From positions 6,315 through 70,314 of the forward strand of contig JAPPPQ010000059.1 of the NCBI GenBank assembly GCA_028817435.1: DNA of 64,000 nucleotides, written 5' to 3'. The position numbers and the translations under genes are program-made. The DNA is from Deltaproteobacteria bacterium. GTDB taxonomy: Bacteria; Myxococcota_A; UBA9160; UBA6930. Below the pieces are notes generated by a model. The model saw only the letters and a program-made list of their open reading frames with translations. It had not been told where the DNA came from and did not search any database. Below are positions 6,572 through 10,519 of the stretch, one piece after another; position 1 is the stretch's first letter, and each line of letters opens with the position of its first letter.

Positions 6572-6754
6572 GAAACCCGCCCCGGGGTGTCAAGCCGCCG
6601 AAGTGGCCTGAATCGACTGAATTTAGACTGATTTAGCCAGAGGTCTAAATTTAGCCCAGTGTCTAAGTAATTCCGCAAAGCACTCGGTCATTTCCAAAAA
6701 ATTGTTTGACCTAGTAAAACACTGAAACTCATTCCAAAATGTCGGCTGGTAGGG

Positions 6755-6782
6755 TTGACGCCATAGGTAAGTAGGTCATAAT
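6755..6782 (+). promoter_or_regulatory. Sigma70-like promoter of the defence operon
   Basis: TTGACG-16 nt-CATAAT, followed by a GGAGG RBS before ATG 6810. Confidence 0.55.
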
Positions 6783-6809
6783 CGCAACACGGAGGGGGGG
6801 CAGACTGCA

Positions 6810-7223
6810 ATGGCGCAAACGGTGAAACACCTGGAGATGATACAGGGCGTGATCAACCGGATGGCCGCCAATTCCTTTGATTTGAAGCGATGGAGTGTCT
6901 TGCTTGCCTCTGCGTTCATTGCAATCTCATGGCGACCCGAGGCTATGTCCCGTGTGGCGCTATTGGCACCGCTTTCGGTGTTGATCTTTTGGTGCTTGGA
7001 CAGTTACTATCTGCGACAAGAGAGGATGTATAGAAAGCTTTACGACAAAGTAAGAGTGCAGGAGCACACAGACTATTCAATGGATACACGCGAGTTCATA
7101 CAAGGGACAACTATAAGTAGCGCATTCTTTTCAGTGACTCTGGGATTGTTTTATATAGGCCTGATAGGCACTATAACGGCGGGAATCATTCTGCTAAACT
7201 TCCTCTCGAAAGGGGCGAACTGA
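6810..7223 (+). CDS. Small (137 aa) three-TM membrane protein, candidate TIR-associated effector
   Basis: KHLEMIQGVINRMAANSF..W, two hydrophobic helices, FWCLDSYYLRQERMYRKLY, then a third TM; stop overlaps the TIR start (TGATG). Confidence 0.75.
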   Translation: MAQTVKHLEMIQGVINRMAANSFDLKRWSVLLASAFIAISWRPEAMSRVALLAPLSVLIFWCLDSYYLRQERMYRKLYDKVRVQEHTDYSMDTREFIQGTTISSAFFSVTLGLFYIGLIGTITAGIILLNFLSKGAN

Positions 7224-7711
7224 TGAGAAGGGTTTTCTTTAGCTTTGATTGGGATGACGCTTGGAAGGTCAACCAAGTGAGACACAGTTGGTTGACGACC
7301 GGTGTGGAGGCTGTGGGCTTCATAGACGCCGCTGACATAGAGCAAGTGAAGAGGGCTAGCCATCAGGCAATCCAGAATTGGATCGATATGCAAATGAAAA
7401 GCACTTCCGTTACCGCTGTTCTGATAGGAGAGAACACACACAGGAGCCGATGGGTTAAGTACGAAATCAAAAAGAGCATTGATAAGAGGAACGGAATTTT
7501 GGAGATATACATTCATAACGTCAAAGACCGATTTGGCCGAACCTCATTCAAAGGGAAGTCGCCATTCGAAGAGCCTCCGTTCAATTGGAGGGCATCGCAT
7601 CAGGGCGAGCTTGCCTATCCTTGTTGTTGCTGCTACGATTGGGTGAGTGGCGAAAGCCATCAGAATGTTGGAGACTGGATAGAAAGGGCCGCGCAGCAAG
7701 CCGGGAGGTAG
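7223..7711 (+). CDS. TIR-domain protein (MTH538/DUF1863, Thoeris ThsB-like)
   Basis: RRVFFSF...NQVRHSW, TSVTAVLIGENT, WVKYEI (catalytic Glu position), C-terminal YDWV...WIERAA. Confidence 0.88.
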   Translation: MRRVFFSFDWDDAWKVNQVRHSWLTTGVEAVGFIDAADIEQVKRASHQAIQNWIDMQMKSTSVTAVLIGENTHRSRWVKYEIKKSIDKRNGILEIYIHNVKDRFGRTSFKGKSPFEEPPFNWRASHQGELAYPCCCCYDWVSGESHQNVGDWIERAAQQAGR

Positions 7712-7717
7712 TCCATA

Positions 7718-9538
7718 GTGAATGAGAGGGTGACAGAGCAGATCGTTCGCTCTCATCTCGACCGATCGGCCGAGGAAGCGGCTGGTGTGCGGTATTGGGA
7801 GCAGACGCCTGACAACGTGCGAATCGGGAAGTTGTTGCGGCGCGCATCCAAGAGCGGTGCGGGCGTGGGCAAGCCGGAATTCATTGTTTCTTTTGACGAC
7901 TACCAAGACTTTCTGATTGTCATGGAGTGCAAGGCGAATTTGGCGAAACACAAGAGTGCAGATGGGAAGAGCAAGCCCAAAGACTTCGCAGTTGATGGCG
8001 TTCGGCACTACGCCAAGCATCTCAGCCGAGAATTCAATGTTTTGGCTATCGCAGTTAGCGGCACCAAAAAGAGCAATCTTCGAGTCAGTCACTTCCTTCG
8101 ATTCAAGGGTGACTACGAAGATGAGAGCGCCGATAACCTCTTGGGCAGGCGTCTTCGAAAGCTTGGTGATTATACCAATTTTTACCGAAACCATGACAAG
8201 CTACTCAATCAGAACCTCAATGAGTTGCTTCTCTTTACCCAAGAATTGAACGAGAAACTGCATGGCTTGAGAATCAAGGGTTCTGATCGGAGTCTGCTCA
8301 TTAGTGCCATCCTGACTGCTCTTGAAGAAGATGGATTCTTGAATTCGTATCGCAAAATTACCAAGCCCACATTGCTTTTGAAAAACATCAGGAGTGCGAT
8401 GCTTGAATCGATGGACACATCCGGGATACAAGCTCCGATAATTCAAAGTGTCAAATCCAGCTATAGCTTTATGGATGTTCCGGGAAAGCTTGGACAAGGG
8501 CGAGTTTTGTCTGATTTGGTCGGAGACATTGACGATCGCGTCAATAATTTCAAGAAGACCCATGAATACTATGACTTCTTGGGGCAATTTTATATCGAAT
8601 TTCTGCGCTATTCCAATAGCGACAAGAGTCTCGGCATTGTCTTGACACCTCCACATATCACTGATCTGGCAGCCCGCCTTGCCAAGGTTGGAGCAAGCGA
8701 TATCCTTTACGATAATTGTGCAGGGACTGGCGGTTTCTTGATTTCTGGAATGAAGGAAATGATTCGAGATGCCCAAGGAGACGAGCGAATGATCAAGCAG
8801 ATCAAAGATAAGGGAATTGTCGGCGTCGAAGATCAGCCCGATATCGCAACATTGCTTTACAGCAATATGTTTATCCATGGAGATGGAAAGAGCAATGTTT
8901 TTCAAGGGGATTGCTTCGATGAAGAATTGAGCAGTCAGATCAAGACCGACTACAAGCCAAGCGTTGGATTTTTGAATCCTCCATTCAAAGTTGCTGCCAG
9001 CGATGCGGAAGAAATGGAATTCGTCCTCAATAACATGGCAACCCTTCGAATCGGAGGGCGGTGTGTCGCGTTGTTGCCCATGCAGTGCGCTCTTTCCCAA
9101 AGGGGAGTAAGGCAGTCGTTGAAGCAAAGAATACTGGACGAGCATACGCTGGAAGCCGTTCTTTCTCTGCCGGATGATATTTTTCACAAGAGTAAGGTTG
9201 GTGCTGTGACTTGCCTCATGGTATTTACGGCTGGGAAATCTCACCCGAAAGGCAAGAAGACTTGGTTTGGCTACTGCAAGGACGATGGATTTGTCAAGCG
9301 AAAGCCACAGGGTAGGGTTGACTACTACAACCGATGGCAGGGTATTAGGGATGGCTGGGTGCAAGATTTCCACAACAGGACAGTGCGCCCAGGGTTCAGT
9401 GTGATGAAGGAGGTTTCAGCGCAGGACGAATGGTGCGCTGAGGCTTTTATCGAAACCGACTACGCGAAATTGACAGAGTCTGATTTCGCAGAGGCGCTGA
9501 AGAAATTTACCGCATATAGGTTCCTGTCGGAGGGCTAG
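7718..9538 (+). CDS. Fused restriction endonuclease/N6-adenine methyltransferase (BcgIA-like, type IIB)
   Basis: N-terminal KPEF...MECK (PD/E-ExK nuclease motif), GIVLTP, motif I DNCAGTGGF, motif IV NPPF, DEWCAEAF tail. Confidence 0.88.
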   Translation: MNERVTEQIVRSHLDRSAEEAAGVRYWEQTPDNVRIGKLLRRASKSGAGVGKPEFIVSFDDYQDFLIVMECKANLAKHKSADGKSKPKDFAVDGVRHYAKHLSREFNVLAIAVSGTKKSNLRVSHFLRFKGDYEDESADNLLGRRLRKLGDYTNFYRNHDKLLNQNLNELLLFTQELNEKLHGLRIKGSDRSLLISAILTALEEDGFLNSYRKITKPTLLLKNIRSAMLESMDTSGIQAPIIQSVKSSYSFMDVPGKLGQGRVLSDLVGDIDDRVNNFKKTHEYYDFLGQFYIEFLRYSNSDKSLGIVLTPPHITDLAARLAKVGASDILYDNCAGTGGFLISGMKEMIRDAQGDERMIKQIKDKGIVGVEDQPDIATLLYSNMFIHGDGKSNVFQGDCFDEELSSQIKTDYKPSVGFLNPPFKVAASDAEEMEFVLNNMATLRIGGRCVALLPMQCALSQRGVRQSLKQRILDEHTLEAVLSLPDDIFHKSKVGAVTCLMVFTAGKSHPKGKKTWFGYCKDDGFVKRKPQGRVDYYNRWQGIRDGWVQDFHNRTVRPGFSVMKEVSAQDEWCAEAFIETDYAKLTESDFAEALKKFTAYRFLSEG

Positions 9539-9540
9539 AA

Positions 9541-10488
9541 ATGATTGAGGTTGGAGAATACTTCGACTTGCGATACGGTACCAGCTTGGAGCTGTACAAA
9601 TTGGTGCAGTCAGAGTCTGGGGTCAACTTCGTCGGGCGAGCTTCACAAAACAATGGGGTCGTCGCCCGCGTCGAACCCATTTTGGAGATTGAAGCCAATC
9701 CTGCGGGCACTATCTCCGTTGCACTTGGTGGGTCCGTCATGGAGTCGTTTCTGCAGGAATCCCCCTATTACAGTGGCCGTGATGTGGTCTATTTGATTCC
9801 TCGGGTCAAATTGAATCGGAAACAGTTCTTGTTCTATTGCATGTGTTTGCGGGCAAACAAGTTTCGATACAGCTATGGGAGGCAGGCTAATAAGACTCTG
9901 GCACAGATTCAAATTCCTGAAATTGATGAGATGCCGACTTATGTTCAGCGCATTCGGATGCCTTCCAAACCGAGTCGAGCTCCGAAATTGCAGAAAAAGA
10001 TCGTCTTGCCGAAATCGCGTGACTGGAAGGATTTCAGCATTTCCGAGCTGTTTTCCATAAAGGGAACAAAGACGACCAAATTGGAAGATTTGGTAAAATA
10101 CGGATCAGGCAAGTATCCGTATGTTACCACCCAAGCTGTCAATAACGGCGTTGCGGGATTTTATGATTACTTCACAGAAGAGGGCGGCGTGATTACGGTT
10201 GACAGTGCAGTTCTGGGCTTCGCAAGTTACCAGCGAGACAATTTTTCCGCCAGCGATCATGTGGAAAAGCTGATTCCCAAATTCTCTATGAATTCGTATT
10301 TGGCGATGTTCTTTGTCGTCATATTGAACGCAGATCAGTTTCGCTACAACTATGGCAGAAAAGCGAGTCAAGATAGGATGAGGCAGCGTAAGATCAAACT
10401 CCCTGCAAAACCGGGTGGAGATCCTGATTTCGAATTGATGGCAAGGTTTATCAAATCGTTGCCGTTTAGTTCTAACCTGCCCGGTTGA
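9541..10488 (+). CDS. Specificity (S) subunit of type IIB R-M system (BcgIB-like)
   Basis: Two repeated halves (NNGV...FRYSYGRQA / NNGV...FRYNYGRKA) and terminal PDFELMARFIKSLPFS; starts 2 nt after the RM gene. Confidence 0.85.
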   Translation: MIEVGEYFDLRYGTSLELYKLVQSESGVNFVGRASQNNGVVARVEPILEIEANPAGTISVALGGSVMESFLQESPYYSGRDVVYLIPRVKLNRKQFLFYCMCLRANKFRYSYGRQANKTLAQIQIPEIDEMPTYVQRIRMPSKPSRAPKLQKKIVLPKSRDWKDFSISELFSIKGTKTTKLEDLVKYGSGKYPYVTTQAVNNGVAGFYDYFTEEGGVITVDSAVLGFASYQRDNFSASDHVEKLIPKFSMNSYLAMFFVVILNADQFRYNYGRKASQDRMRQRKIKLPAKPGGDPDFELMARFIKSLPFSSNLPG

Positions 10489-10519
10489 CAACCATCGAAA
10501 ATTGGAGTAGGGGCTCGTT

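What the first reader, a model, noticed from the sequence alone, without database searches (positions are those of the whole stretch)
6810..7711. ThsB-like TIR coupled to a small 3-TM protein with no canonical Thoeris effector
Seen: a 137-aa membrane protein overlapping (TGATG) a DUF1863-type TIR that keeps the WVKYEI glutamate; no SIR2, SLOG, Macro or caspase domain anywhere nearby. Established: ThsB TIRs make NAD-derived signals that are read by ThsA effectors carrying such domains. Inference: the TM protein, with its polar segments (HLEMIQ..INRM..NSF; LDSYYL.QER.YR.LY), is a compact signal-gated or directly TIR-activated membrane effector, i.e. a non-canonical Thoeris-like system, possibly with a different messenger.
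Basis: partly seen in the sequence, partly recalled or inferred. Interest (0 to 1): 0.75.

Follow-up and report, generated by a model that had tools for sequence, protein, structure and literature searches.

The report
Catalogued TIR plus membrane-effector defence pair
This is an intact two-gene anti-phage module, a TIR signalling enzyme next to a small three-helix membrane protein, but the pair is already catalogued and a form of it appears to have been tested, so it is an ordinary new member of a known kind.

Summary
ORFs 6810-7223 (137 aa, three hydrophobic helices) and 7223-7711 (162 aa, ThsB-type TIR with the YEI glutamate E81) share one base (TGATG).

The pair is not unclassified. PADLOC's library matches both genes as candidate system PDC-M50, A at 4.9e-40 and B at 1.5e-49.

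The membrane family is very large, with 5671 50%-identity clusters. It is TIR-linked: 57 of 80 loci have a TIR gene within 500 bp.

The closest relatives of this TIR pair either with this membrane family (43 of 80 loci) or with the type I effector ThsA (25 of 80). That is the pattern Yirmiya et al. (bioRxiv 10.64898/2025.12.03.692087) describe for type V Thoeris, whose three-helix effector ThsF is annotated 'DUF2270' and responds to 3'cADPR.

I could not prove identity with ThsF. The family stays below Pfam's DUF2270 cut-off and the paper's tables were not readable. I rate it about 85% likely.

Most likely mechanism (inferred): a phage-triggered TIR makes an ADP-ribose-derived signal, and the membrane protein oligomerises and breaches the membrane.

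The pair lies in a 3.8-kb low-GC island beside an unrelated BcgI-like restriction system. Interest is low.

The parts
6755..6782 (+). Promoter-like site TTGACG-16-CATAAT, 28 bp upstream of the first gene
   Evidence: Consensus scan gives 10 of 12 matches. The region has 6 such sites against 3.8 +/- 1.6 in shuffles, so this is a pattern match only.
6810..7223 (+). 137-aa membrane protein with three hydrophobic helices, PADLOC PDC-M50A family; the predicted effector (probably ThsF of type V Thoeris)
   Evidence: PDLC04686 at 4.9e-40 and no Pfam family. Model pLDDT is 86.3 with helices 2-40, 46-83 and 109-136. R17, D64 and E71 are conserved in 218 of 218 aligned members. A GGAGG lies upstream of the ATG.
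7223..7711 (+). 162-aa ThsB-type TIR protein (PDC-M50B / ThsB1); the predicted phage sensor and signal synthase
   Evidence: PF08937 at 8.2e-22. PDLC00431 ThsB1 at 1.3e-52 and PDLC04688 PDC-M50B at 1.5e-49. E81 is invariant in 28 of 28 relatives. The best solved relative is B. cereus ThsB at 2.3e-24.
7718..9538 (+). Neighbour, a separate system: 606-aa fused nuclease-methyltransferase of a BcgI-like type IIB/IIG restriction system
   Evidence: PDLC03608 REase_MTase_IIG at 4.7e-125, covering profile positions 37-609 of 614. PF02384 at 1.9e-24. It is not linked to PDC-M50 pairs in 91 other loci.
9541..10488 (+). Neighbour: 315-aa specificity subunit of the same restriction system
   Evidence: PDLC03594 Specificity_II at 9.8e-47, covering 1-322 of 322. 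PF01420 at 7.6e-23.
6640..10500 (.). Low-GC island holding the four genes
   Evidence: GC is 0.43-0.57 inside against 0.60-0.75 in the flanks. The membrane family was found in 0 of 40 related genomes searched.

Best explanation
The two genes form a Thoeris-type abortive-infection module. It is PADLOC candidate PDC-M50, and very probably the 'type V Thoeris' (ThsB + ThsF) of Yirmiya et al. 2025.

The proposed mechanism has three steps, all inferred:
- The 162-aa TIR protein senses phage infection. It uses its conserved glutamate (E81) to convert NAD+ into an ADP-ribose-derived second messenger, most likely 3'cADPR.
- The 137-aa protein sits in the inner membrane with its N-terminus in the cytoplasm and its C-terminus outside. 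It binds the messenger on its cytoplasmic face, where the conserved polar residues cluster (H7, Q12, R17, N21, S22, K26, D64, E71, R75, Y78).
- As a homo-oligomer it opens or disrupts the membrane, stopping the infected cell before the phage matures.

Shown here: the genes are intact, they belong to these families, the families are tightly linked across phyla, and the TIR clade exchanges this effector for ThsA. Inferred: the signal, the oligomer, membrane damage and the defence phenotype of this particular locus.
For: Classification: both genes match PDC-M50 models.

Linkage from the effector side:
- Of the 80 best loci encoding a relative of the membrane protein, out of at least 554 in species-representative genomes, 42 have a relative of this TIR within 400 bp.
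- 15 more have another TIR-type gene within 500 bp, making 57 of 80.
- Two further loci have a TIR 619 and 2530 bp away.
- The order is usually membrane gene then TIR, but it is reversed in L032, L053, L062 and L064 and on Priestia and Klebsiella plasmids.

Linkage from the TIR side:
- Of the 80 best loci for this TIR's relatives, 43 carry the membrane family, 41 of them within 210 bp.
- 25 of the other 37 carry ThsA1 (SIR2-SLOG) immediately upstream.
- Exchanging effectors on one TIR clade is what a diffusible signal predicts. It is also the pattern the paper reports for its 'DUF2270' partner: one TIR cluster held 302 type I, 160 type IV and 122 DUF2270 pairings (section read).

Effector role of the membrane module: it occurs fused behind a SLOG (LD_cluster2) sensor domain in P0272 and next to a SLOG gene in L024.

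Topology: in 218 members K+R averages 4.26 in the N-terminal segment and 7.04 between helices 2 and 3. It averages 1.37 in the short loop and 0.13 in the C-tail.

The TIR: its catalytic glutamate is invariant. Its closest solved relative is the type I ThsB of B. cereus.

Published tests (sections read): type V systems from Bacillus defended against phage, their TIRs made 3'cADPR, and the effector of one was triggered by added 3'cADPR. That effector has three membrane helices and an AlphaFold3 heptamer model with positively charged pockets.

Mobility: the island has low GC and the family was found in 0 of 40 relatives searched. The family is on 150 plasmid records.
Against: Identity with the tested ThsF is not proven:
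- The window's protein has no PF10028 hit at E<=0.1.
- Family members reach at most 18.4 bits against a cut-off of 25.
- Profile-profile comparison with 30 canonical DUF2270 proteins gives only 2.4-6.5% probability.
- The paper's tables of gene IDs were not available to me.

The paper itself reports that added 3'cADPR did not trigger a second type V system (Bacillus sp. 1NLA3E). The messenger may therefore differ even within the type.

Of the 80 effector-side loci, 21 showed no TIR within 3 kb at my thresholds. Some of these have radical SAM, DUF1801, STAND-WD40 or restriction genes as neighbours.

No solved structure resembles the model. Nothing here shows expression or defence by this locus.
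Confidence: 0.7

Rival explanations
1. The architecture and logic are the same, but the membrane family is not the tested ThsF. It would be one of the 18 predicted, still unverified TIR-associated effectors of Yirmiya et al. (Figure 1C), possibly read by a messenger other than 3'cADPR.
For: The family fails Pfam's DUF2270 cut-off, and hhalign probability is 2.4-6.5%. [quoted passage not shown] Its tables were not readable.
Against: - In the TIR clade shared with type I ThsA, this family is the only recurrent small membrane partner I found (43 of 80 loci). My own DUF2270 model found nothing at E<=10 in the ORFs of 160 loci, with a positive control at 170.7 bits.
- Canonical PF10028 passes the cut-off in 1 of 301 genomes of the phylum where the paper says type V is enriched, and there it lies between mdh and bacA. 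This family is in 8 of 301, with ThsB next to it in 3 of the 6 strong hits.
- Sub-threshold DUF2270 hits keep one register, protein residue about 27 against profile position 23.
- The family occurs in Bacillus thuringiensis.
Confidence: 0.12
2. The TIR activates the membrane protein by direct protein contact, as a pre-assembled or infection-induced complex, with no diffusible messenger.
For: The genes are translationally coupled by a one-base overlap. The 137-aa protein has no recognisable nucleotide-binding domain.
Against: - The family pairs with several different TIR clades: PADLOC ThsB models 00431, 00422 and 00430, long TIR_2 proteins of 400+ aa, and DUF4062.
- Gene order flips, and in two loci the strand as well.
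- The same TIR clade serves ThsA, which is known to be signal-gated.
- The module is also fused to SLOG sensors.
Confidence: 0.08
3. The roles are reversed. The TIR is an NAD+-depleting effector, and the membrane protein is a sensor, anchor or regulator.
For: The paper states this possibility for its unverified configurations. Bacterial TIRs act as NADase effectors in CBASS, Pycsar, SPARTA-type and Avs systems (named in the section read).
Against: Relatives of this TIR sit next to ThsA in 25 of 80 loci, where ThsB is the signal maker. Its closest solved relative is deposited as a 'putative cyclic ADP-D-ribose synthase ThsB1'. The membrane module appears as the C-terminal output of a SLOG-sensor fusion.
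Confidence: 0.06
4. The pair is an inert passenger or has a function unrelated to phage defence.
For: There are no expression data for this locus. A few family members lie in non-defence contexts, such as L128 next to an enoyl-CoA hydratase and a DEAD-box helicase (weak hit, 8.4e-8).
Against: Both frames are intact and keep every invariant residue of their families. The pair sits next to a restriction system in a horizontally acquired island. The family is on 150 plasmid records and is often beside other defence genes.
Confidence: 0.04

Closest known systems
PADLOC candidate system PDC-M50 (PADLOC-DB v2.0.0, models PDLC04684-04688)
   Same: Both genes match its models over their full length, A at 4.9e-40 and B at 1.5e-49. 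They are adjacent on one strand.
   Different: Nothing differs in sequence terms. PDC-M50 is only a candidate in the library: the name occurs in 0 papers of the searched library, so the label carries no mechanism.
Type V Thoeris, ThsB + ThsF ('DUF2270' effector); Yirmiya et al., bioRxiv 10.64898/2025.12.03.692087
   Same: It is a two-gene operon of a TIR plus a small effector with three membrane helices. The TIR clade is shared with type I systems. It is widely spread, including Bacteroidota and Bacillus.
   Different: The window's effector is not a Pfam PF10028 member at the curated cut-off. Identity with the tested ThsF proteins could not be checked against the paper's tables. This locus comes from a high-GC genome and is untested.
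Type I Thoeris (ThsB + SIR2-SLOG ThsA), e.g. Bacillus cereus MSX-D12
   Same: The TIR clade is the same: the best solved relative is BcThsB at 2.3e-24, and the PADLOC ThsB1 model matches at 1.3e-52. 25 of the 80 closest TIR loci carry ThsA1.
   Different: There is no ThsA here. The only SIR2 protein in the assembly is Dsr1-like and on another contig. The output is a membrane protein, not an NADase.
Type VII Thoeris (ThsH, SLATT domain) and SLATT effectors of CBASS
   Same: These are small membrane-spanning effectors thought to oligomerise on signal binding. Like SLATT, this module also associates with SLOG domains.
   Different: No SLATT family was hit by any of 35 members at E<=5. The type VII signal is canonical cADPR.
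Type II Thoeris (ThsC: transmembrane helices + Macro domain, His-ADPR)
   Same: The effector is membrane-targeting and driven by a TIR signal (passages read).
   Different: There is no Macro domain. The protein is 137 aa with no Pfam family.

Membership tests
PADLOC PDC-M50 | Protein A matches a PDC-M50A model | tested here: met
   PDLC04686 at 4.9e-40, residues 2-124 on profile positions 2-127 of 134. Three further PDC-M50A models also match.
PADLOC PDC-M50 | Protein B matches the PDC-M50B model | tested here: met
   PDLC04688 at 1.5e-49, residues 1-159 on profile positions 2-158 of 162.
PADLOC PDC-M50 | The two genes are adjacent | tested here: met
   They are on the same strand with a one-base overlap.
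Thoeris (general) | ThsB-type TIR protein with the catalytic glutamate | tested here: met
   PF08937 at 8.2e-22. E81 is invariant in 28 of 28 relatives and aligns to the YEI of BcThsB. That this glutamate is catalytic is recalled knowledge.
Thoeris (general) | A dedicated effector gene next to the TIR gene, conserved across lineages | tested here: met
   57 of 80 effector-side loci have a TIR gene within 500 bp, and 41 of 80 TIR-side loci have the effector within 210 bp.
Thoeris (general) | The TIR makes a signalling molecule on infection, the effector responds to it, and the system protects against phage | not testable with these tools
   This needs phage challenge, LC-MS and toxicity assays.
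Type V Thoeris (ThsB + ThsF) | Effector with three membrane-spanning helices | tested here: met
   The model has helices 2-40, 46-83 and 109-136, and there are hydrophobic segments. The charge distribution fits an N-in, C-out topology.
Type V Thoeris (ThsB + ThsF) | Effector is a Pfam PF10028 (DUF2270) member at Pfam's own cut-off | tested here: not met
   The window's protein has no hit at E<=0.1. 9 of 35 and 8 of 30 family members give only sub-threshold hits, at most 18.4 bits against 25. hhalign probability is 2.4-6.5%. The paper's annotation was made on cluster representatives and is described there as noisy.
Type V Thoeris (ThsB + ThsF) | Effector belongs to the paper's ThsF cluster or DefenseFinder ThsF model | not testable with these tools
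   The supplementary tables and the new DefenseFinder models were not available.
Type V Thoeris (ThsB + ThsF) | The TIR belongs to a cluster that also serves type I ThsA | tested here: met
   Of the 80 closest TIR loci, 43 carry this membrane family and 25 carry ThsA1.
Type VII Thoeris / SLATT | Effector carries a SLATT domain | tested here: not met
   No SLATT family was hit among 35 members at E<=5, and no non-PDC-M50 PADLOC model matched at E<=0.1.
Type II Thoeris | Effector carries a Macro domain behind its transmembrane helices | tested here: not met
   The protein is 137 aa with no Pfam family. Macro matches in the assembly lie on other contigs.
Type I Thoeris | SIR2-SLOG ThsA next to the ThsB | tested here: not met
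   The neighbours are the membrane gene and a restriction system. The only SIR2_2 protein is Dsr1-like and on contig C58.

The most novel reading that the evidence does not exclude
The PDC-M50A membrane module may not be the tested ThsF. It may instead be a general-purpose killing module that different sensors (ThsB TIRs of several clades, SLOG domains fused or adjacent) switch on. In this clade it would answer a messenger other than 3'cADPR, or a protein contact. A 137-aa protein with no known nucleotide-binding fold would then be the smallest known receptor for a TIR signal.
Probability: 0.12. Interest if true: 0.5.

Novelty: new member of a known kind. Interest (0 to 1): 0.22.

Why it matters
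It adds one more horizontally acquired copy of a very common defence pair, this time in a high-GC genome held by sponge-metagenome runs. As a discovery it matters little.

Two points keep some value. First, the family is huge (5671 clusters at 50% identity, on 150 plasmid records) yet has no Pfam family, no solved structure and no paper under its PADLOC name. A clear link between PDC-M50 and the named Thoeris type would help annotation. Second, how a 137-aa three-helix protein reads an ADP-ribose-derived signal is unsolved. The invariant R17, D64 and E71 and the SLOG fusions give concrete mutants and comparisons to test.

Tried and rejected
- Homo-oligomer prediction (4 copies): no verdict (score 0.10, mark 0.42). 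It counts neither for nor against.
- Fold searches of the membrane-protein model. Foldseek against the PDB gave 0 matches at E<=0.001. VIA-align over 48,161 chains gave only generic helical hairpins, best Z 9.2, below the roughly 13 bar for helical proteins.
- ESM Atlas: the nearest clusters are unnamed. The nearest named one (8xMP, score 0.86) is only a lead.
- Canonical DUF2270 homology: hhalign probability 6.5% and 2.4%.
- Search for Bacillus relatives by exact peptide patterns from a Priestia plasmid protein: 1 locus only.
- Empty-site test. Orthologues of the flanking acyl-CoA dehydrogenase were found in relatives. The other flank gene is not within 1.5 kb in any of the 7 relatives' loci, so synteny is not conserved and no empty site could be shown.
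- No direct repeats flank the island.
- The island's DNA has no match among plasmids in distant mode.
- Four-gene composite idea (pair plus restriction system): only 3 weak methylase hits of another kind in 91 loci, so I rejected it.
- Expression: no RNA holder listed among the sequencing runs.
- Literature: 'PDC-M50' in 0 papers. 'ThsF / DUF2270 / type V Thoeris' only in the Yirmiya preprint. '8xMP' gave nothing relevant.
Full report
**What is in the sequence**

ORF 6810-7223 encodes 137 aa and ORF 7223-7711 encodes 162 aa. They are joined by TGATG, so the stop and the start share one base.

A GGAGG precedes the first ATG. A promoter-like TTGACG-16-CATAAT lies at 6755-6782. That is a consensus match only: the region has 6 such sites against 3.8 +/- 1.6 in shuffles.

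Two more genes follow with gaps of 6 and 2 bases. They encode a 606-aa protein (7718-9538) and a 315-aa protein (9541-10488).

All four genes sit in a stretch of GC 0.43-0.57. The flanks have GC 0.60-0.75. The flanking long ORFs I scanned are metabolic: enoyl-CoA hydratase, thiolase-like, ChsH2-like, two acyl-CoA dehydrogenases and others.

**What the four genes are**

- The 162-aa protein is a ThsB-type TIR, PF08937 at 8.2e-22.
- The 137-aa protein has no Pfam family at E<=0.1.
- In PADLOC's library the 137-aa protein matches PDC-M50A (PDLC04686, 4.9e-40). The TIR matches ThsB1 (PDLC00431, 1.3e-52) and PDC-M50B (PDLC04688, 1.5e-49).
- The 606-aa protein matches a fused nuclease-methyltransferase model (PDLC03608, 4.7e-125). 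The 315-aa protein matches a type II specificity subunit (PDLC03594, 9.8e-47). Together these are a BcgI-like restriction system; the name BcgI is from recall.

It is in fact a catalogued candidate system. The label PDC-M50 occurs in no paper of the searched library, so it brings no mechanism with it.

**The membrane protein**

The AlphaFold2 model, built on 35 aligned relatives, has mean pLDDT 86.3 and pTM 0.75. Its helices are 2-40, 46-83 and 109-136.

The first helix starts as an amphipathic N-terminal segment and runs into a weakly hydrophobic membrane segment. The second and third are clearly hydrophobic.

In an alignment of 218 members, lysine plus arginine averages as follows:

| Segment | Mean K+R |
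|---|---|
| N-terminal segment | 4.26 |
| Loop between helices 1 and 2 (6 residues) | 1.37 |
| Segment between helices 2 and 3 | 7.04 |
| C-terminal tail | 0.13 |

By the positive-inside rule this places the N-terminus and the long polar segment in the cytoplasm.

The conserved polar residues are all on that side or at the interface: H7, Q12, R17, N21, S22, K26, D64, E71, R75 and Y78. R17, D64 and E71 are present in 218 of 218 members.

No solved structure resembles the model.

**Size and spread of the family**

A profile search of 1.84 billion cluster representatives found 5671 with E<=0.001 and 908 with E<=1e-30. Two searches of the 90%-identity collection gave 176 and 2590 relatives. All names given by sources are 'hypothetical protein', including an entry from Bacillus thuringiensis.

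A relative was used as the query against plasmids. The family is on 150 plasmid records: Klebsiella 42, Escherichia 36, Campylobacter 10 and others.

The family was not found in 40 related genomes searched. Together with the GC drop, this marks the island as horizontally acquired.

**Linkage to TIR genes, from the effector side**

| Finding in the 80 loci | Loci |
|---|---|
| Relative of this TIR within 400 bp | 42 |
| Relative of this TIR at 619 or 2530 bp | 2 |
| Another TIR-type gene within 500 bp (14 TIR_2/ThsB_TIR/TIR; 1 DUF4062 plus weak TIR_2) | 15 |
| Total with a TIR-type gene within 500 bp | 57 |

For the 36 loci without a relative of this TIR, I scanned 48 neighbouring ORFs, the largest on each side. 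A few more neighbours give only faint TIR hits.

The remaining loci have other neighbours: a SLOG gene (L024), radical SAM-SPASM genes, DUF1801, STAND-WD40 proteins or restriction genes. Some end at a contig edge.

Gene order is usually membrane gene then TIR. It is reversed in L032, L053, L062 and L064, and on a Priestia and a Klebsiella plasmid.

**Linkage from the TIR side**

At least six of these are the same places as in the first set.

- 43 loci carry the membrane family, 41 of them within 210 bp.
- Among the 23 most similar TIRs, 21 have it next door.
- For the other 37 loci I scanned 43 of the 62 candidate neighbours. I dropped 19 downstream ORFs, mostly at loci where an upstream gene of about 480 aa was present.
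- In 25 of those 37 loci, the gene immediately upstream is ThsA1, the SIR2-SLOG effector of type I Thoeris. One is Sediminibacterium magnilacihabitans DSM 22423, a genome the paper names for its Thoeris island.

So one TIR clade exchanges ThsA for this membrane protein. That is expected if the TIR emits a diffusible signal and the neighbour is the receiver.

**Further support for an effector role**

The module occurs as the C-terminal part of a 378-aa protein whose N-terminal part is a SLOG domain (P0272, LD_cluster2 at 1.7e-15). It is also fused behind an 8xMP membrane domain in P0337.

The family pairs with several different ThsB models (PDLC00431, 00422, 00430) and with long TIR_2 proteins. 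That argues against a specific conserved TIR-effector interface.

**The TIR**

E81 of 'YEI' is invariant in 28 of 28 relatives. The best solved relative is the ThsB of Bacillus cereus (9b7d, deposited as 'putative cyclic ADP-D-ribose synthase ThsB1', and 6lhy). The match is 2.3e-24 over residues 2-143, with the glutamate aligned.

**Comparison with the literature**

I read the abstract, Results sections 5-9, the Discussion, the supplementary figure legends and one Methods section of Yirmiya et al. (bioRxiv 10.64898/2025.12.03.692087). Its supplementary tables were not available to me.

The paper predicts 29 Thoeris configurations and verifies 11. Several have membrane effectors.

Type V is a TIR plus ThsF. 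ThsF is 'annotated' as PF10028 DUF2270, has three membrane helices, and is modelled as a heptameric channel with positively charged pockets between protomers.

- Type V TIRs made 3'cADPR on infection.
- Added 3'cADPR was toxic to cells carrying the B. thuringiensis system, but not to cells carrying a second type V system.
- The DUF2270 partners were found in a TIR cluster that also held 302 type I and 160 type IV pairings.
- Type V is said to be enriched in Bacteroidota.

**Is PDC-M50A the same as ThsF?**

Evidence against:
- The window's protein has no PF10028 hit.
- Family members reach at most 18.4 bits against a cut-off of 25. Sub-threshold hits occur in 9 of 35 and 8 of 30 members scanned.
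- hhalign against 30 canonical DUF2270 proteins gives 6.5% and 2.4% probability.

Evidence for:
- The weak hits always use the same register, residue about 27 on profile position 23.
- By eye, the two families share a layout: an N-terminal helix ending in W, two membrane helices, then an E/R/Y-rich helix ending in 'RVR'.
- Canonical PF10028 passes the cut-off in only 1 of 301 genomes of the phylum of Winogradskyella immobilis. There it lies between malate dehydrogenase and bacA.
- This family is in 8 of the same 301 genomes, with a ThsB next to it in 3 of the 6 strong hits.
- My own DUF2270 model finds nothing at E<=10 in the ORFs of all 160 TIR- or effector-centred loci, while a control scores 170.7 bits.
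- The TIR clade is shared with type I, as the paper describes.

I therefore take PDC-M50A to be the paper's ThsF with about 85% probability. I do not file it firmly, because the Pfam criterion as written is not met and the gene lists were not seen.

Earlier notes of this scan reached the same reading for other genomes. I used them as leads only. One of them links PDC-M50 to type XI (a HIT hydrolase), which does not apply here because there is no hydrolase gene.

**Mechanism**

Shown: the genes are intact, they belong to these families, the two families are linked across phyla and on plasmids, and the TIR clade exchanges effectors.

Inferred: phage-triggered synthesis of an ADP-ribose-derived messenger (3'cADPR most likely), its binding on the cytoplasmic face of an oligomer of the 137-aa protein, membrane breach and abortive infection.

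Rivals, with my odds:
- A distinct untested type with another messenger: 0.12.
- Direct TIR-effector contact: 0.08.
- TIR as NADase effector: 0.06.
- No defence function: 0.04.

**The neighbours**

The restriction system is a separate unit. In 91 loci carrying PDC-M50 pairs, nothing resembles it beyond three weak methylase hits of another kind. No other Thoeris effector is in the assembly. The only SIR2_2 protein is Dsr1-like and on another contig.

**Verdict**

The functional reading is broadly right and the novelty claim is wrong. This is a new member of a known kind and interest is low.

Noticed in passing
window 7718-10488: An intact BcgI-like type IIB/IIG restriction system lies 6 bases behind the TIR gene. 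It has a 606-aa nuclease-methyltransferase, whose N-terminus carries a PD-(D/E)xK-like 'PEF...MECK' motif, and a 315-aa specificity subunit with two target-recognition halves. It is not linked to PDC-M50 pairs elsewhere.
   Followed up: partly
window 6615-6673: At the left edge of the low-GC island there is an imperfect palindrome with repeated TTTAGNC / GTCTAA motifs (arms 6626-6653 and 6646-6673, 75% complementary). It lies about 100 bp upstream of the promoter-like site. It could be an operator or an integration scar.
   Followed up: no
G000 contig C58:54906-58301 (L113, ORF 346-2262 on the - strand): A 637-aa SIR2 protein matches only the first half of PADLOC's Dsr1 model (positions 2-652 of 1248, E 7e-137). 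It may be a short or truncated DSR1-like defence gene.
   Followed up: partly
proteins P0272, P0337, P0261: There are fused forms of the membrane module. P0272 is SLOG (LD_cluster2) plus the module. P0337 is an 8xMP membrane domain plus the module. P0261 has an unassigned 225-aa N-terminal part plus the module. In locus L024 a SLOG cluster 3 gene lies next to the module.
   Followed up: partly
L124:1495-3355 (- strand): In one Bacteroidota-type genome a strong family member (4.8e-47) lies 8 bp downstream of a 445-aa protein with a GH25 muramidase domain. The arrangement recalls an endolysin with a holin, which hints that the module can serve in lysis cassettes.
   Followed up: no
proteins P0193, P0201, P0216, P0223, P0236-P0239 (alignment A2): A subgroup of this TIR's relatives, about 195 aa long, carries a glycine- and alanine-rich hydrophobic insertion of about 35 residues before the C-terminal YDW motif. 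It may be a membrane hairpin inside the TIR protein.
   Followed up: no
L140 and L149: Two Poribacteria-labelled loci carry a second copy of the membrane family within 1.7-1.8 kb of the TIR-effector pair.
   Followed up: no
window 6700-7720: The stretch is held in full by seven runs labelled sponge metagenome, from three studies; these may be its source. One further run of a fourth study holds it at 0.97. Many of the closest TIR and effector relatives come from genomes labelled Poribacteria or other sponge associates.
   Followed up: no
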